This document shows positions 1 through 6,503 of a DNA stretch of 64,000 bases, in pieces. This DNA comes from an uncultured delta proteobacterium (GTDB lineage: Bacteria; Desulfobacterota; Binatia; UBA9968). Within the stretch, counting starts at the first letter, position 1, and every line of letters starts with the position of its first letter. Location: contig CAWFJP010000004.1 in assembly GCA_963816145.1 (NCBI GenBank), positions 384,001-448,000 on the forward strand, read 5' to 3'. The notes under the pieces were generated by a model, which did not search any database, had not been told where the DNA came from, and saw only the letters and a list, made by a program, of their open reading frames with translations. Made by a program: the position numbers and the translations under genes.

Positions 1-861
1 GAGGTCAAAGGTACGGTTACGATCAATAGCGCTGAGCCGCTACGCTCAGAGGATTTGATGCCGATATTCCACCAGCTTTTACGCATGAATGGCGCGGTGG
101 CGGTGCGCACCGGCAACCTTTATCACATCATGCCGATCAAAGACGGCAAGGGGTTAGCACGCCCGTTGGCGCAAGGGCGCGAAGATAGTTTTGCCTTGCA
201 GCTCATCCCGGTGCGATTTTTTACGGTCGCCGAAATGAAGCGGGTTTTGACGCCGTTTTTGCAGCCGGGCGCTGAGATCGTCGATAATCCGCGCGGCAAT
301 TTCTTGATCGTGATGGACACGCCGCTCAATATACAGCGTCTTGTGGAAATCGCCGATCTCATCGACGTTCAAGTGTTTGCCGGCACGCGCATGGAGATTT
401 ATCAGCCGAGAATTGCCAGCGCCGAGGAATTGTCGCAAGAGATGACTAAAGTCATGCAGTCGTTTTCCGCCTCCTCGCCCCAATCCGAAAACTTTGCCGC
501 GCAGTTCATCCCGCTGCCAAGAATCAACCAGCTACTGGTGATCGCCCACAGCGAAGCCGCCTGGACCTACGCTAAACGTTGGCTCGACCGCATCGACGTG
601 GTTGCCGAAGGCCCGGGTCGTAGGATATTTATCTATCCGGTGGAGAACGGTAAGGCGACGGAGCTAGCTGATGTGCTTAGTCAAGCGCTCGGTCTGCCTT
701 CGACGGGTTCAAAAGTAAGCACGCAAACTTTGCAGAGTATCCATCGCTCGTCATCAAGCAGCTCCAACCAATCTGGTAACTACGGCCAGTCAAGTGGCTC
801 GAGTCAGTTTGGTTCGGGTCAGTTTGGTTCGGGGAGTATGCAGCAGGGGCAAACACGATGA
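1..861 (+). CDS. gspD: Type II secretion secretin GspD, N-terminal part (N0-N1-N2 and first half of N3); 5' end lies outside the window
   Basis: Frame is open from base 1 (EVKGTVTINS...). N0 motif LLRMNGAVAV; N1 NPRGNFLIVMDTPLNIQRLVEIADLID; N2 PRINQLLVIA; N3 start IFIYPVENGKATELADVL, then a Ser/Gly-rich loop and TGA at 859-861. Confidence 0.85.
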   Translation, partial: EVKGTVTINSAEPLRSEDLMPIFHQLLRMNGAVAVRTGNLYHIMPIKDGKGLARPLAQGREDSFALQLIPVRFFTVAEMKRVLTPFLQPGAEIVDNPRGNFLIVMDTPLNIQRLVEIADLIDVQVFAGTRMEIYQPRIASAEELSQEMTKVMQSFSASSPQSENFAAQFIPLPRINQLLVIAHSEAAWTYAKRWLDRIDVVAEGPGRRIFIYPVENGKATELADVLSQALGLPSTGSKVSTQTLQSIHRSSSSSSNQSGNYGQSSGSSQFGSGQFGSGSMQQGQTR

Positions 862-2654
862 AAAAATTTATCGCCCTATGGCTCATCCTAATCGTCGCAA
901 ACTTTTCCGGTGCGCAGGCACAAAACCGTGCCGGAGCGTTCGCAGCGGCAGCCGCGCCCGGCCAAGTCCCAGTGCCGGCAGCGGCCACCCCCCAACTCAC
1001 CACACCGCCGGGACCTGGTAGCCCGAGACCAGCTACCCCGGGCCAACCTGGCCAGCAGCAGCAACAGGAGCAGTTGCGTGTCGTTGCCGACCCCGCGACC
1101 AACTCACTGATTATCTACGGAACGGTCCAGGAGTATCAAAACGTCAAGAACATCCTGAAAGAATTGGACGCGGTCCCACGGCAGGTGTTGATCGAAGCGA
1201 TGATATTGCAAATCGATCTAAAAGATGCCGAAGATTTCGGGGTTGACTATCAGCTGTTCACAAAATCGCGGCAGACTATCTTTGGAAAGACTTTTGGCTC
1301 GAATGCTGTGATCACGTCATTGGGGGCGAAACTGTCCCCCGCCGCACCATTTTTCGCAGGTGTAAATGGACTTACTGCAATCGTTGGCGATGATACAGTA
1401 TCCGCATTAATTCGTGCTGCGGCGACGGATTCTCGAATAAAGCTGATCTCATCTCCCAGCGTGATTGCCAGCGACAATAAGCCAGCGCGGATTCAAGTCG
1501 GCAGCGAGGAGCCAATCGCGACAGGTAGCGTCCAGGCGGCAACCGGTGCGGTTGCAAGTCTTTCAACCTCCACGACCATTCAGTACCGTAATACCGGCCG
1601 GATTTTGACAATCATCCCCCAGGTTAATTCGCAAGGCTTGGTCAATTTGCAGATCAAAGCTGAAGTTAGTGCGCGCGGTGACGATGTGACGGTTGGACAA
1701 GACAAATACCCCGCGTTCAATACCCAGGACGCGGAAACGACCGCTGTGGTTCAGGACGGTGACACGCTGGTCATCGGCGGACTTATCGGTGAGCTCAAAA
1801 GAAAGGCGCGGGTCGGCGTTCCCTACTTGATGGACATCCCGGTCATCGGCCGCTTCTTTGGCACTACCAGCGATGAATCCAGTCGCACCGAACTCATCAT
1901 GTTGATCACGCCGCGGGTCATTCGCAATCGGAGTGACTCTCGCGTGGTTACGGCAGAATTTAAAGCCGGTTTAGAGAAAGTCAGAACCGAGCTTGAACGT
2001 TATGAGAGGGACCGCGCGAAATTACTGCCGCCACCACCGCTGCCGCCACTGCCGGATCCAAACCAGTATTATCAATACGATCAGCAGCAGCCAGCACCGA
2101 CCAATCCGCCCGTTGGGCCGCGAACTTCGCTGCCGCCGGTGGTTGGCAACATCATGATCTTTTCGAATGATCCAATCACCGGTCGGATGATGCCGCCGAT
2201 GGCTGTACCGCAGGAGTCGGTTCCAGTTGCACTTGAGCAAACCCAACCTGTGGCTACAAAGCCCCTTGAGCAACTGAGTCGAAGCGCGGCCCCGGTGTTA
2301 CCAGCACCACCGGCCTATATGCTATCGTTTACGTCAGCGCCGCCGGTAGCCGCGCCTGCTGCTCCAGCGGTTCCAGTGATTCCGGCGCAGCAGCAAAAGC
2401 AAAAGTCTGCCGATCCCCGACGGATTTGGACCGTGCAAGTTGCTGCGATCGCGGAATCTAGCGCTGCCGAATCGTTGGCGCAGAAATTGCGCCGATTGGG
2501 ATACGACGCTTATATTCGCATCATCAAGAGCGAAACTAAGACCTGGCATCGGGTGCGGGTCGGGCAGCTGGAAAGCCAAAAAGATGCGGCTGACCTGCGC
2601 AACATCCTCAGCGCCAAGAAAGAACACAAAGACGCGTATATTGCTCTCTATTAG
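858..2654 (+). CDS. gspD: Secretin GspD C-terminal part: signal peptide, second half of N3, secretin core, Pro-rich linker, SPOR domain
   Basis: Signal-like MKKFIALWLILIVANFSGAQA; VVADPATNSLIIYG (N3); PRQVLIEAMI, DNKPARIQVGSEEP, VQDGDTLVIGGLI, VPYLMDIPVIGRFF, RTELIMLITPRVI (secretin); WTVQVAA...WHRVRVG (SPOR). Confidence 0.85.
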   Translation: MKKFIALWLILIVANFSGAQAQNRAGAFAAAAAPGQVPVPAAATPQLTTPPGPGSPRPATPGQPGQQQQQEQLRVVADPATNSLIIYGTVQEYQNVKNILKELDAVPRQVLIEAMILQIDLKDAEDFGVDYQLFTKSRQTIFGKTFGSNAVITSLGAKLSPAAPFFAGVNGLTAIVGDDTVSALIRAAATDSRIKLISSPSVIASDNKPARIQVGSEEPIATGSVQAATGAVASLSTSTTIQYRNTGRILTIIPQVNSQGLVNLQIKAEVSARGDDVTVGQDKYPAFNTQDAETTAVVQDGDTLVIGGLIGELKRKARVGVPYLMDIPVIGRFFGTTSDESSRTELIMLITPRVIRNRSDSRVVTAEFKAGLEKVRTELERYERDRAKLLPPPPLPPLPDPNQYYQYDQQQPAPTNPPVGPRTSLPPVVGNIMIFSNDPITGRMMPPMAVPQESVPVALEQTQPVATKPLEQLSRSAAPVLPAPPAYMLSFTSAPPVAAPAAPAVPVIPAQQQKQKSADPRRIWTVQVAAIAESSAAESLAQKLRRLGYDAYIRIIKSETKTWHRVRVGQLESQKDAADLRNILSAKKEHKDAYIALY

Positions 2655-2713: not shown

Positions 2714-2948
2714 GGCCGCGCGTTGGCGTTAGCGCGTGTAGGCCGATAGTCAAATTCGTGAGGAGCGCCGACCGGCGCCGATTTTGTTCGCGTTATTCGC
2801 TTTGTTATAATTTGCCTGAAACCCAAAGGGGTGAGTTCGACAGCTTTAAACCTTGCTGTGTTGATCCCCGCCAAGCGTCATTCCGGCCTAGAAATCCAAG
2901 CCGCTATGAGGATTGGCGACGTTGATCCAAGGGGTGAAAGAGAGTATG

Positions 2949-2976
2949 TTGACTCGATTTCCGACAAGGCTATAGC
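2949..2976 (+). promoter_or_regulatory. Candidate sigma70 promoter for the coxD-led operon
   Basis: TTGACT-16 bp-TATAGC about 105 bp upstream of the GTG at 3080. Confidence 0.4.
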
Positions 2977-3079
2977 CATTGGCGGAGGGGTTCTGGGGGC
3001 GATATTGCATTCGTATCCAAGCCTTACGATTCCCGCCGAACTGGTGCTGGAAAAATTAACTGCAAAGGATGAAGCGCGC

Positions 3080-4000
3080 GTGGATCCGAAACAGCTGACC
3101 ATCGAGCAAGTTCAAGAAATTCTTCTCAAAGAAAAATATGTCTGCGACCGTTCTCTGGCGACCGTAGTTTATTTGTCGTTGGTGATGGGCAAACCGCTTC
3201 TTCTAGAGGGCGAAGCGGGGGTCGGCAAGACCGAGATCGCCAAGGTGTTGTCCAAGGTCTTGGGCGCGCGGCTGATCCGTTTGCAGTGCTACGAAGGGCT
3301 CGATGCCAGTACCGCGCTCTACGAGTGGAACTACCCTAAGCAGATGCTCCATATCAAGCTCGAAGAGATCGAGCGCGGCGATAAGAAGCAGGTTGAGACC
3401 GAGATCTTTACTCAAGACTACCTGGTTAAACGGCCGTTGCTCGACGCGATCCAGAGCGAGGATACCATCCCGCCGGTGCTGTTGATCGACGAGATCGACC
3501 GCGCCGATATGGAGTTCGAGGCGTTTCTACTCGAAGTCTTGTCCGATTTTCAGATCACTATTCCCGAGTTGGGCACGGTGACGGCAAAGCATCGGCCCTA
3601 TGTGTTTCTCACCTCCAACCGCACGCGGGAAATCCACGACGCTTTGAAGCGGCGCTGTTTGTATCACTGGATCGAGTATCCGACCTTCGACAAGGAATAC
3701 GAGATCATCACGACCAAGTTTCCCGAGGTCGAAACCAAAATGGCGCAGCAAATCTGCGCGTTCATGCAAAAAGTGCGCGAGATGAATTTCTACAAGCGTC
3801 CCGGTGTCGCCGAAACTTTGGATTGGGCCACGGCACTGATCGCGCTCAATCGCAAACAGTTGGATGACAAGTCGGTGATCGAGACCATGGGCTGCGTGTT
3901 CAAGTACCGGGAAGATTTGAGCCATCTGCGCGAGCAAGTGGAAAACCGCCAATTCAGTCTCGATGCGCTGCTGCGCACCTCGCCGGAGCTCGTGAGTTAG
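3080..4000 (+). CDS. coxD: MoxR-type AAA+ ATPase, CoxD family
   Basis: Walker A LLLEGEAGVGKT, RLQCYEGLD, Walker B VLLIDEIDRAD, LTSNRTREIHDALKRRC. Start placed at GTG 3080 (AAGGA upstream) rather than 2831. Confidence 0.88.
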   Translation: MDPKQLTIEQVQEILLKEKYVCDRSLATVVYLSLVMGKPLLLEGEAGVGKTEIAKVLSKVLGARLIRLQCYEGLDASTALYEWNYPKQMLHIKLEEIERGDKKQVETEIFTQDYLVKRPLLDAIQSEDTIPPVLLIDEIDRADMEFEAFLLEVLSDFQITIPELGTVTAKHRPYVFLTSNRTREIHDALKRRCLYHWIEYPTFDKEYEIITTKFPEVETKMAQQICAFMQKVREMNFYKRPGVAETLDWATALIALNRKQLDDKSVIETMGCVFKYREDLSHLREQVENRQFSLDALLRTSPELVS

Positions 4001-4006
4001 GGATCG

Positions 4007-5221
4007 ATGGATATCACTCCCGAAACAGTCGCGGAGGCGGTCAACAAAGTCGCCTCGGCACGCGGCAAAGGCACTTTGCCGAACATCATGGCGTTTGGCC
4101 GCGCCTTGAAACAGCTCGGCGTCAAGGTCAGCTTGAGCCAGCTACTCGATGCCTCGCGTTCGGCGGATCTGGTCGACATTTCCGAGCGTGGCGATTTCCG
4201 CGCGCTGTTACGCGCCAACTTGATTTCGCAAAAGGAAGACTTTCCGGTCTTCGATATGCTATTCGATTGTTTCTGGCGCGAGCAGAGCTATGAGCGCGTG
4301 CCGATGGAAACCATGGATATTCAAGGCACGCCCACCGAGTCTCAAGCCCCGGAGGGCGGCGATGAGGAAGGCGGCATGGAAGAGGCTGCCACCGAGGCGA
4401 TCGCCAATGAGAATTTGCCGCTGGAGAATCTCGACGAGTTCGCGGTGCCGACCTATAGCGCGCAGGAGCTGATGAACCGCAAGGACTTCAGCGAGATGGG
4501 CACCGAGGAAAGCCGCGCCATCGCCCGAGCGATTCTGCTCATCGCTACCAAGATCGCCACCCAGATCAGCCGGCGCAAGAAGATCGGTCGCAAAGGTCCG
4601 GTGATCGACCCGCGTACGACCATGCGGCGAAGCATGAAGTTTGGCGGCGAAGTGATCGAGATGTCGCACCGCAAACGGCGCATCAAGAAAACCAAAGTCG
4701 TGCTCTTGTGCGATGTTAGCGGCTCGATGGACTGTTACAGCCGGTTTCTGATTCAGTTCATGTACGGTCTTCAGAATGAGCTGTGGGGCGTCGAGACTTT
4801 CGTTTTTAGCACATCGCTCAGCCGGATCACCCATCTGATCCGCACCAAGAATATCGTCGATGCGTTGGATAAGATTTCCGGCACGATCCTCGGCTGGTCC
4901 GGCGGCACCAACATCGGCCGCTCGTTGCACACTTTTAACCGCAACTTCGCGCCGAGCATGGTGACCCACCGCACGGTAGTGGTGATCATCAGCGACGGTT
5001 GGGACCGCGGCGACGTCAGTTTGCTCGAAAAGGAAATGCAGGATATCAAGCGGCGCGCCAAGAAAATCATTTGGCTCAATCCCTTGCTGGCGAGCGAGAA
5101 CTACGAACCGCTGTGCAAAGGCATGCAGGCGGCGTTGCCGTATTTGGATATGTTTTTGTCGGTGCACAATGTCAACAGTTTGGTTGCGTTAGGGCGGACC
5201 TTGCAGAAGATGGTGGCGTGA
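4007..5221 (+). CDS. coxE: vWA-domain protein, CoxE family
   Basis: MIDAS motif LCDVSGSM; WSGGTNIG; IISDGWDRGD; IWLNPL; adjacent to a MoxR ATPase. Confidence 0.88.
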   Translation: MDITPETVAEAVNKVASARGKGTLPNIMAFGRALKQLGVKVSLSQLLDASRSADLVDISERGDFRALLRANLISQKEDFPVFDMLFDCFWREQSYERVPMETMDIQGTPTESQAPEGGDEEGGMEEAATEAIANENLPLENLDEFAVPTYSAQELMNRKDFSEMGTEESRAIARAILLIATKIATQISRRKKIGRKGPVIDPRTTMRRSMKFGGEVIEMSHRKRRIKKTKVVLLCDVSGSMDCYSRFLIQFMYGLQNELWGVETFVFSTSLSRITHLIRTKNIVDALDKISGTILGWSGGTNIGRSLHTFNRNFAPSMVTHRTVVVIISDGWDRGDVSLLEKEMQDIKRRAKKIIWLNPLLASENYEPLCKGMQAALPYLDMFLSVHNVNSLVALGRTLQKMVA

Positions 5222-5224
5222 TTA

Positions 5225-5320
5225 GAATTGATAATGGATAATTGAGCATGGAAAATGACGGACTGGGAGTGGTGCGGTTATCGCGCCCTTTTCTATCCTC
5301 AATCTTCTATCCTCGATTCT
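5225..5320. repeat. Heptamer-period inverted repeat (GATAATG/GAAAATG-type units and reverse-complement-like units)
   Basis: gaattgataatggataattgagcatggaaaatg ... ttttctatcctcaatcttctatcctcgattct; related blocks at about 35035 and 47650. Confidence 0.6.
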
Positions 5321-5337
5321 AAACAGGAGGTCTGAAC

Positions 5338-5733
5338 ATGGCTGGACCCGGCGCTTGTTACACGGATGCGGACTTAGAAGCGAAGAAGAAAGACTCGATC
5401 TATCATCAGGTCAACGAGTTTCTCGCCAAGGGCGAGACCGTCGCGGTGGCGACCATCGTCTCGACCAAGGGCTCGACGCCGCGGGAAGTCGGCGCCAAAA
5501 TGGTGGTGACCGCTTGGGGTGAAATTTTGGGCACCATCGGCGGCGGCTGTGGCGAGGCCGACGTCAAGCGTGAAGCCGTCGAAGTGATCCGCTCGCGCAA
5601 GCCGCGCACCGTGCGCGTCGATTTGCTCGACGATATTTCCTCGGACAGTCCGGCGGTGTGCGGCGGCATCATGAATGTCTTTATCGATCCCTGGTGGCAG
5701 GAACGCGACGAGGAGGCGGCAAGCGGCAAATGA
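5338..5733 (+). CDS. XdhC/CoxI family protein, N-terminal domain only
   Basis: ATIVSTKGSTPREVGAKM, GTIGGGCGE, VCGGIMNVFIDP; strong AGGAGG RBS. Confidence 0.88.
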   Translation: MAGPGACYTDADLEAKKKDSIYHQVNEFLAKGETVAVATIVSTKGSTPREVGAKMVVTAWGEILGTIGGGCGEADVKREAVEVIRSRKPRTVRVDLLDDISSDSPAVCGGIMNVFIDPWWQERDEEAASGK

Positions 5734-6503
5734 GTTCGCTGTCCGAAGAATTAGTCAAAATCGCCGAGCAGGGCGAGGCGGCGGTCCTGGTGACCGTCGT
5801 TGAAGTGCAGGGCGATGGGCGGACCCAGCCCGGCGCCAAGTGTCTGATCCGCGACGGCAGGGCGCAGGTTGAAACCATCGGCGATGCCAAAGTGGTCGCC
5901 GTCCTGGAGCGTGAGAGCGAAACCCATGCGCGGGCGGAAAAATCTCAACTGGTTTCGCTGGCGATTCCCGACAGCACGATCAAGCTCGAAGCGTTCTTCG
6001 AAGTCATGCCGTCGCCGCCCAAGCTGATCGTCGTTGGCGCCGGTCATATCGCCGTGCCGCTGGTGAAGATCGCCAAGGTGCTCGATTTTCACGTCACGGT
6101 GATCGATGACCGTTTGCTCTTCGCCAATCGCGAGCGCTTCCCCGACGCCGATGAAGTTTTGACCGGCGACATGGCGCAGATGCTCAAGGAAATGACCATC
6201 ACGCCGTCATGCTATATTGTTTTGATTACCCGCGGCCATGCTTACGACGAGCCCTGTTTGCGCAACATCATTCACAGCAAGGCGAAATACATCGGCATGA
6301 TCGGTAGCCGGCGGCGCATCAAAGCGTGCTTTCAGCGTTTCCGAGATGAAGAGAAAATCACTGAGGAAGCGATCCAACGCATTTACGCGCCCATCGGCCT
6401 CGATATCGCCACGGAGACGCCGGCGGAAATCGCTTTGTCGATTCTCGGCGAGGTGATCAAGATCCGGCGCGGCGGCAAAGCCGCATCGCTGTCAGGCCAT
6501 TGA
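5730..6503 (+). CDS. XdhC family protein (second domain plus Rossmann C-domain)
   Basis: LIVVGAGHIA, VIDDR, LITRGHAYD, YIGMIGSRRR, APIGLDIATETPAEIALSI. ATGA overlap with the upstream gene; start at ATG 5730. Confidence 0.88.
   Translation: MSSLSEELVKIAEQGEAAVLVTVVEVQGDGRTQPGAKCLIRDGRAQVETIGDAKVVAVLERESETHARAEKSQLVSLAIPDSTIKLEAFFEVMPSPPKLIVVGAGHIAVPLVKIAKVLDFHVTVIDDRLLFANRERFPDADEVLTGDMAQMLKEMTITPSCYIVLITRGHAYDEPCLRNIIHSKAKYIGMIGSRRRIKACFQRFRDEEKITEEAIQRIYAPIGLDIATETPAEIALSILGEVIKIRRGGKAASLSGH

What the first reader, a model, noticed from the sequence alone, without database searches (positions are those of the whole stretch)
600..1200. Split secretin: GspD divided inside the N3 loop, with a new signal peptide on the second half
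Seen: the N0-N1-N2 domains and the first beta-alpha unit of N3 end in a Ser/Gly-rich loop and stop at TGA 859. An ATGA-overlapping ORF (AGGGG about 8 nt upstream) begins with a textbook Sec signal (MKK-FIALWLILIVA-NFSGAQA|Q). It supplies the rest of N3 (VVADPATNSLIIYG) and the secretin barrel. Known: secretins are normally single chains, and the N3 loop is disordered and tolerates insertions. Inference: this is a two-chain secretin in which N3 re-forms by fragment complementation in the periplasm. The upstream frame past the stop reads KNLSPYGSS*SSQTF, which is still Ser-rich. Ser codons (TCN) read in the shifted frame give I/L/V, so the signal peptide may have been overprinted on the old linker. 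Rejoining the halves needs either that hydrophobic stretch inside the loop or three repairs (TGA 859, TAA 889 and an indel), which is hard to attribute to one sequencing slip.
Basis: partly seen in the sequence, partly recalled or inferred. Interest (0 to 1): 0.85.

Follow-up and report, generated by a model that had tools for sequence, protein, structure and literature searches.

The report
Two-gene type II secretin
The outer-membrane pore protein of a type II secretion system is encoded here as two adjacent genes, cut inside one small domain, with the second half carrying its own export signal; related soil bacteria keep the same arrangement under selection.

Summary
ORF A ends at TGA 859-861. 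It carries N0, N1, N2 and the first strand-helix of N3. ORF B (858-2654) overlaps it by ATGA. It starts with a Sec-type signal peptide and carries the rest of N3, the secretin domain and a C-terminal SPOR domain.

It is not an assembly error. Contigs from three other studies cross the junction without an indel. The split was read in 14 of the 49 genomes of the same family whose junction could be read.

It is not a pseudogene. dN/dS is 0.008-0.042 for the N half and 0.04-0.09 for the pore half.

Four junction layouts occur. Each has its own start codon and hydrophobic leader, which argues against recoding.

The signal peptide lies in a net insertion of about 56-122 nt relative to fused relatives. 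The overprinting idea is therefore not supported.

Re-formation of N3 from the two chains is inferred, not shown.

A "split secretin" is already in print for rhizobial type III systems. There the pore half is described as acquired from a Tad locus, so it is not a fission in place.

Verdict: a real feature and a new variant of a known kind.

The parts
1..861 (+). 3' part of ORF A (gspD N half). The gene starts about 494 nt before the window, with its own signal peptide and a Pro-rich linker. It then carries N0, N1, N2, the first strand-helix of N3 and a Ser/Gly-rich tail. The stop is TGA 859-861.
   Evidence: The exact 451-aa product is on record in public collections as a separate gene call.
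616..690 (+). N3a: the first strand and helix of the N3 domain, the last folded element of ORF A.
   Evidence: aligned to the N3 start of 5zdh. (in a fused homologue, strand 103-108 and helix 114-124 precede a low-confidence loop). (nine invariant columns here across 46 split and fused sequences).
691..858 (+). Ser/Gly/Gln-rich C-terminal tail of ORF A. It is the upstream part of the former N3 loop.
   Evidence: dN/dS is 0.08-0.35 among type-I genomes.
845..849 (+). Shine-Dalgarno-like AGGGG, 8 nt before the ORF B start.
   Evidence: A purine-rich equivalent is present in the other six type-I junctions. It also encodes part of ORF A, so its conservation is not independent evidence.
858..861 (+). 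ATGA overlap: the ORF B start codon and the ORF A stop codon. ORF B is in the -1 frame relative to ORF A.
   Evidence: The same overlap is found in seven genomes.
858..920 (+). Signal peptide of ORF B (about 21 residues): two Lys, a hydrophobic core and an Ala-x-Ala site.
   Evidence: The sequence diverges among relatives but keeps its character. Cleavage was not tested.
921..1073 (+). Ala/Pro/Gln-rich linker of mature ORF B. It is the downstream part of the former N3 loop.
   Evidence: It aligns in frame with the loop of fused relatives.
1074..1184 (+). N3b: the remaining strand-strand-helix of N3.
   Evidence: Secretin_N profile positions 30-69 only. (aligned to 5wq7 from residue 278). (invariant columns).
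1419..1925 (+). Secretin pore domain.
   Evidence: (PF00263, E 1.5e-44).
1935..2417 (+). Pro-rich linker between the pore and the SPOR domain.
   Evidence: dN/dS is 0.2-0.46.
2424..2642 (+). C-terminal SPOR (peptidoglycan-binding) domain.
   Evidence: PF05036, E 2e-15.

Best explanation
This is a working type II secretion secretin (GspD) whose gene underwent fission in place, inside the long disordered loop of the N3 domain.

Shown:
- The upstream gene encodes a leader, N0, N1, N2, the first strand-helix of N3 and a Ser/Gly tail.
- The downstream gene overlaps its stop by ATGA. It encodes a new leader, the rest of the loop, the remaining strand-strand-helix of N3, the pore domain and a SPOR domain.
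- Both genes are kept under purifying selection in a set of related species.

Inferred:
- Each chain is exported separately through Sec.
- The second leader is cut off by signal peptidase I.
- The two chains then associate in the periplasm by rebuilding one N3 domain from its two pieces. The N0-N2 module, which in known systems contacts the inner-membrane platform, would stay attached to the pore ring in this way.
- The ATGA overlap suggests translational coupling and roughly equal amounts of the two chains.
- The fission was probably tolerated because the cut lies in a loop of about 100 residues that already separated the two pieces of N3. Whether it brings an advantage is open.
For: - Domain content and cut point.
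- Operon: Pfam matches to the T2SS families E, F, G, J, K, L and M, plus two further pseudopilin-like genes (N_methyl motif only), lie directly upstream.
- Not an error: contigs of three other studies (X2, X4, X8) cross 850-910 with no indel. The two substitutions near it (902, 932) are synonymous in the ORF B frame by my reading of the codons. Both products are on record as separate gene calls of 598-600 and 450-451 aa from several sources.
- Conservation: the split was read in 14 of 49 family genomes with a readable junction.
- Selection among five type-I genomes: dN/dS is 0.008-0.042 for N0-N3a (10 of 10 pairs). It is 0.038-0.089 for N3b plus pore (6 pairs; the other 4 have saturated dS).
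- The N3 pieces keep the same invariant residues in split and fused forms.
- Leader: 11 of 12 pass my leader test, against 0.9% of random ATGs.
- AlphaFold2 model of a natural fused homologue: N3 is strand-helix, then a low-confidence loop (residues 131-222 nearly all with pLDDT under 50), then strand-strand-helix.
- A contig from an RNA library bridges the junction at 788-1157. DNA carry-over cannot be excluded.
Against: - No experiment or model shows that the two chains bind.
- Cleavage of the leader is untested, and SignalP was not available.
- One of the 12 leaders (G011) fails my cleavage-site rule, and one (G021) has an atypical site.
- Foldseek matches of the N2-N3 model to secretin N domains are weak. 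The best E-value is 5.5e-3 and none is at or below 0.001.
- Two assemblies counted as split (G003, G019) are full of frame hops at this locus, so their state rests on recognisable pieces and not on clean ORFs.
- All genomes are uncultured metagenome bins, and contamination of this one is 6.7%.
Confidence: 0.75

Rival explanations
1. The two chains are both functional but do not rebuild N3. The N half works as a free or differently docked periplasmic adaptor between the platform and the pore. Alternatively, the hydrophobic start of ORF B is an uncleaved anchor.
For: Binding is not shown. In the rhizobial type III case the N-terminal protein is proposed to act as a linker to a pore of foreign origin (passages of PMC3459982). 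The N-half and pore-half trees disagree for G067, so the halves can be recombined.
Against: The two N3 pieces keep the same invariant residues as in fused forms, and the N half has a dN/dS of 0.008-0.042. Unchanged constraint on a half-domain is hard to explain if it no longer pairs with its other half. An Ala-x-Ala-type site follows the hydrophobic core in most leaders. An outer-membrane pore cannot stay anchored in the inner membrane.
Confidence: 0.17
2. One chain is still made, by programmed frameshifting or stop read-through across the junction.
For: In type I, ORF B is in the -1 frame and overlaps the stop, next to a run of six A.
Against: - I saw no slippery heptamer before the stop in the seven type-I junctions.
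- Other genomes have an in-frame stop with a 27-nt spacer, a 2-nt spacer or a 113-nt spacer, each with its own ATG. No single recoding mechanism fits all of these.
- A joined product would carry a hydrophobic leader inside a periplasmic loop.
Confidence: 0.03
3. The split is an assembly or sequencing error, or a recently broken gene on its way to loss.
For: Metagenome bins do carry frameshift errors. G003, G019 and G066 show frame hops in this very locus.
Against: Independent contigs agree. The split is conserved in 14 genomes with four layouts. Purifying selection is strong on both halves while dS is 0.3 to saturated. The leader is a conserved insertion that fused relatives lack.
Confidence: 0.02

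Closest known systems
Single-chain GspD secretins of type II secretion systems (solved examples 5wq7, 5zdh, 5wq8, 6i1x)
   Same: The same domains in the same order (N0, N1, N2, N3, secretin domain), and the same operon context.
   Different: Here there are two polypeptides, cut between helix 1 and strand 2 of N3. There is a second signal peptide, an N3 loop of about 100 residues, and a C-terminal SPOR domain.
Fused GspD-SPOR orthologues in the same bacterial family (for example G006, the closest fused relative on the pore-half tree)
   Same: 59% identity to ORF B over residues 19-598. The same N-half sequence, the same loop and the same SPOR domain.
   Different: One open frame of about 980-1060 aa in nine of the ten fused genomes of the genus; the tenth, G066, has a frame hop. 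They lack the stop, the start codon and the hydrophobic leader. Over this stretch the five fused forms aligned are 56-122 nt shorter than the six split forms aligned.
rhcC1 / rhcC2 'split secretin' of rhizobial-type type III secretion systems
   Same: The secretin function is spread over two genes, an N-terminal-domain protein and a pore protein (passages of PMC3574062 and PMC3973906).
   Different: - By PMC3459982 (passages), RhcC2 was acquired from a Tad locus, has a BON domain and replaced the original C-terminal part. That is a partial gene replacement, not a fission in place.
- The two rhizobial genes lie apart in the cluster.
- Here the pore half is the orthologue of the pore part of fused relatives, the genes are adjacent or overlapping, the system is type II, and the cut lies inside a folded domain.

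Membership tests
GspD-type secretin (type II secretion) | N0 domain followed by repeated Secretin_N (N1, N2, N3) domains | tested here: met
   (PF21305, PF03958). N3 is present only as two pieces, on two chains.
GspD-type secretin (type II secretion) | C-terminal secretin pore domain | tested here: met
   (PF00263, E 1.5e-44). (5wq7, E 2.3e-36).
GspD-type secretin (type II secretion) | Encoded in a T2SS gene cluster | tested here: met
   Pfam matches to T2SS E, F, G, J, K, L and M, with two N_methyl-only pseudopilin-like genes between G and J. All lie directly upstream on the same strand.
GspD-type secretin (type II secretion) | A single polypeptide holds the N domains and the pore | tested here: not met
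   there is a stop and a new start inside the N3 loop.
GspD-type secretin (type II secretion) | Forms a roughly 15-fold multimeric outer-membrane channel | not testable with these tools
   Needs expression and electron microscopy.
Rhizobial-type split T3SS secretin (RhcC1/RhcC2) | Lies in a type III secretion cluster | tested here: not met
   the neighbours are type II genes.
Rhizobial-type split T3SS secretin (RhcC1/RhcC2) | Pore half of Tad (RcpA/CpaC) origin, with a BON domain | tested here: not met
   One search finds no BON domain. The pore half groups with the pore parts of fused GspD of the same family. The best PDB matches are GspD, while RcpA scores far lower.
Sec signal peptide cleaved by signal peptidase I (ORF B N-terminus) | Positive n-region, uncharged hydrophobic core, small residues at -3 and -1, and no lipobox Cys | tested here: met
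   a crude rule of my own: 11 of 12 leaders pass, against 0.9% of random ATGs. I saw no conserved lipobox. SignalP was not available.
Sec signal peptide cleaved by signal peptidase I (ORF B N-terminus) | Actually cleaved on export | not testable with these tools
   Needs N-terminal sequencing or proteomics.

The most novel reading that the evidence does not exclude
The N module and the pore module of this secretin have become separable subunits, and evolution reshuffles them.

The split state needs at least six changes on the pore-half tree. The AU test rejects one clade of split forms (p 0.002). The N-half tree does not rule out one origin, and it places G067 with this genome's clade although G067's pore half groups with a fused form.

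Either the same loop has been cut several times, each time gaining a leader. Or one fission allele, with a leader born from an insertion in a disordered linker, has spread by recombination between lineages.

Either way this would be a natural case of periplasmic fragment complementation of a folded domain, and of the birth of a signal peptide inside a gene.
Probability: 0.3. Interest if true: 0.7.

Novelty: new variant of a known kind. Interest (0 to 1): 0.55.

Why it matters
Secretins are treated as single-chain building blocks of type II and type III secretion, type IV pili and phage export.

A natural form cut inside N3 and kept by selection says three things, if the mechanism holds:
- The N0-N2 module need not be covalently joined to the pore.
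- A ring-building domain can be assembled from two separately exported pieces.
- A Sec leader can arise within a disordered linker.

It offers a natural test case for how secretin N domains dock and gate, and a design hint for splitting secretins experimentally.

It also matters for annotation. Gene callers list the two halves as separate proteins, four of them labelled as general secretion pathway protein D. Such halves could be taken for broken genes.

Tried and rejected
- Complex prediction of N2+N3a (138 aa) with N3b (60 aa), each with a 46-row alignment: score 0.24, below the mark of 0.32. No verdict, and controls were not run. This counts neither for nor against binding.
- Donor of the leader: blastn-short and tblastn of the junction and leader against the whole own genome gave only chance-level matches. 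The origin of the inserted DNA stays unknown.
- Overprinting: the Ser-rich reading of the ORF A frame past the stop resembles the upstream linker only in G000 and G002. It does not in G022, G004, G009 or G021. I did not run a permutation test.
- Independent split outside the family: P0024 (446 aa, 42% identity) starts with a hydrophobic segment followed by a Gly-rich linker and N3b. A class-wide search (401 genomes) found that its nearest relatives (62-69% identity) have open frames of 823-1386 aa in 10 of the 12 loci returned; the other two start at contig ends. Five short-frame candidates were fetched. Four end at contig ends, and one has withheld bases in the loop. Unresolved.
- Foldseek of the N2-N3 model: the top matches are secretin N domains, but none has E at or below 0.001.
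- AU test with the mixture model was killed for memory. It was repeated with LG+G4 on 49 of the 60 rows. The group was named after the tree had been seen, so the p-value is generous.
- Literature: searches for 'split secretin', 'two-component secretin', 'secretin split', 'bipartite secretin'; 'secretin gene is split', 'secretin is split', 'secretin encoded by two', 'two secretin genes', 'split gspD', 'split pilQ'; and secretin + GspD + 'split into two' + 'N3 domain' (listing only). These found only the rhizobial and Pseudomonas syringae type III case. I found no split GspD in this library. Subscription journals and supplements are not covered.
Full report
**What is there.**
- The window begins inside a gene. 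In the genome (G000, contig C4) that gene starts about 494 nt upstream, with its own signal peptide and a Pro-rich linker.
- Its frame ends at TGA 859-861. ATG 858-860 overlaps the stop and opens a 598-aa ORF that ends at 2654.
- Pfam puts N0 and Secretin_N on the first product. On the second it puts the last 40 positions of a Secretin_N, the Secretin pore domain and a SPOR domain.
- Against solved structures, the first product aligns with GspD from N0 to the first strand-helix of N3 (5zdh residues 35-279). The second aligns from the next strand of N3 through the pore (5wq7 residues 278-624).
- Directly upstream, on the same strand, lie genes with Pfam matches to the type II secretion families E, F, G, J, K, L and M. 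There are also two further pseudopilin-like genes (N_methyl motif only) and one 219-aa protein without a family.

**Is it an artefact?**
- Twenty public runs in 17 studies hold the stretch or a part of it. I laid four of them.
- Contigs of X2 and X4 cover 400-1400 with 3 and 4 substitutions and no gap. A contig of X8 covers 400-1150 with one in-frame 6-nt insertion at 1058, in the Gln run.
- None has an indel near 850-910. The substitutions at 902 and 932 are third-position and synonymous in the ORF B frame, by my reading of the codons.
- One of these runs may be the source of the assembly. Three studies cannot all be.
- A contig from an RNA library (X15) covers 788-1157 and so bridges the junction. 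DNA carry-over cannot be excluded.
- The exact 598-aa and 451-aa products are on record as separate gene calls, in clusters of 11 and 36 members from several sources.

**Relatives.**
- I searched 41 relatives and then the 90 genomes held for the family. I fetched 20 further loci and read the junction in each locus.
- Record titles of close relatives name Candidatus Binatia and 'Deltaproteobacteria' metagenome bins.
- The junction could be read in 49 family genomes: 14 are split and 35 are fused. G020, G023 and G069 end at contig ends and were not counted. Four of the fused genomes (G005, G059, G062, G076) are unpublished.
- All 10 loci from the two other families of the order are fused.
- The split comes in four layouts:
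  - Type I: ATGA overlap in G000, G002, G022, G004, G009, G021 and G067. The same pieces are recognisable in G003 and G019, whose loci are full of frame hops.
  - Type II: an in-frame stop, a 27-nt spacer with a GGAG before the ATG, in G011, G064 and G065.
  - Type III: a 113-nt spacer, in G063.
  - Type IV: a stop, 2 nt and then ATG, in G073.
- Every layout has a Met followed by a hydrophobic segment that fused relatives lack.
- Among the 150 best of 40,134 matches in the representative library, I fetched 30. Six of them (P0001, P0002, P0004, P0007, P0008, P0020; 50-67% identical) start with such a leader followed by the linker and the second part of N3.

**Selection.**
- I computed Nei-Gojobori dN/dS among the five clean type-I genomes.
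- For N0 to N3a it is 0.008-0.042 in all 10 pairs.
- For N3b plus pore it is 0.038-0.089 in the 6 pairs whose dS is not saturated.
- Linkers give 0.06-0.35, the SPOR domain 0.10-0.28, and the leader 0.19-0.55, with one pair at 1.5 on 15 synonymous sites.
- Both halves are thus conserved long after the split.
- The two pieces of N3 keep the same invariant residues in split and fused forms.

**The leader.**
- My crude test passes 11 of 12 leaders and 37 of 4007 random ATGs.
- The leaders differ greatly in sequence but keep a positive start, an uncharged core and a small-x-small site.
- I saw no conserved lipobox.

**Where the leader came from.**
- A DNA alignment of six split and five fused forms shows 56-122 extra nucleotides in the split forms. 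These cover the end of ORF A, the start codon and the hydrophobic core.
- The C-terminal part of the leader and the residues after it align in frame with the old linker of fused forms.
- The leader is therefore mostly a net insertion, not an overprint.
- No donor was found in the genome.

**Structure.** An AlphaFold2 model of the N2-N3 stretch of a natural fused homologue (G006, 36-row alignment) gives N3 as follows:
- strand 103-108 and helix 114-124;
- a stretch, residues 131-222, with pLDDT under 50 nearly throughout;
- strands 226-230 and 235-240, and helix 242-257.

The cut falls in that stretch. Foldseek ranks secretin N domains first, but weakly.

**History.**
- On a quick tree of the pore half (60 rows) the split state needs six changes. 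Left out were L001, a duplicate of the window's own locus, L007, L017 and L021 for frame problems, L019, L020 and L032 for contig ends, and L052 for length.
- On a careful tree of 25 rows it needs two.
- Holding all 15 split rows together costs 273 log-likelihood units, with AU p 0.002 (49 rows, LG+G4).
- A tree of the N half (39 rows) is poorly resolved and does not rule out one origin. It places G067 with this genome's clade (support 96), although G067's pore half sits beside the fused G014 (support 100).
- Repeated fission, re-fusion, or recombination between the halves could each explain this. I cannot tell which.

**Mechanism.** Shown: there are two genes, both are conserved, the second has a Sec-type leader, and the cut is in the N3 loop. 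Inferred: separate export, cleavage of the leader, and re-formation of N3 from the two chains. The inference rests on the unchanged constraint on both N3 pieces. My one complex prediction gave no verdict and is listed only under Tried and rejected.

**What is known.**
- A 'split secretin' is described for rhizobial-type type III systems as rhcC1 and rhcC2 (PMC3574062: passages and the section of that name; PMC3973906: passages).
- Abby and Rocha conclude that RhcC2 came from a Tad locus and replaced the C-terminal part of the original secretin (PMC3459982, passages).
- That case is a replacement, with the two genes lying apart. This one is a fission in place, within a folded domain of a type II secretin, with a new leader.
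- My searches found no split GspD in print.

**Verdict.** The feature is real. It is a new variant of a known kind and of moderate interest. The open questions are how the halves bind and how often the split arose.

Noticed in passing
window 2424-2642 (and the Pro-rich linker 1935-2417): The secretin ends in a SPOR (peptidoglycan-binding) domain, after a Pro-rich linker of about 160 residues. Fused relatives of the family that I looked at (for example P0003 and P0005) have a matching C-terminal stretch too. One literature search (SPOR domain + secretin + type II secretion) listed 7 papers, which I did not read.
   Followed up: partly
L033 (G067) compared with L018 (G014) and L006 (G009): The N-half and pore-half trees disagree for G067. 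Its N half and junction are of this genome's type. Its pore half groups with a fused form from another genome. This suggests recombination between the two halves.
   Followed up: partly
L017 (G003), L021 (G019), L034 (G066), L007 (G021): These assemblies hop between frames several times within this locus. G066 even does so inside the first N3 strand-helix, and G021 near the 3' end. They are either error-prone assemblies or decaying copies.
   Followed up: no
window 1058: One independent contig (run X8) carries an in-frame 6-nt insertion in the Gln run of the ORF B linker. The loop varies in length within the population.
   Followed up: no
G000:C12:12917-13747: A second secretin gene lies in the same genome. 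It is 29% identical to ORF B and sits in an open frame of 689 aa. A similar copy of about 670-760 aa is seen in many relatives. It is presumably the secretin of another system, and it is not split.
   Followed up: no
about 514-1173 nt before the window start (L073:12827-13483): A 219-aa ORF between the gspM-like gene and the secretin N half has no Pfam match. By position it could be a GspC- or GspN-like partner of the N0 domain.
   Followed up: no
window 2831-6503: Downstream on the same strand lie an AAA (AAA_5) ATPase, a CoxE-like VWA protein and two XdhC-family genes. The first of the XdhC genes is a short gene with the XdhC_CoxI domain only. This looks like a molybdoenzyme maturation cluster, unrelated to the secretin.
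   Followed up: partly
P0024 (446 aa, from the representative library): A more distant secretin (42% identity) that also starts with a hydrophobic segment followed by a Gly-rich linker and the second part of N3. It may be an independent split in another family. Its context could not be read.
   Followed up: partly
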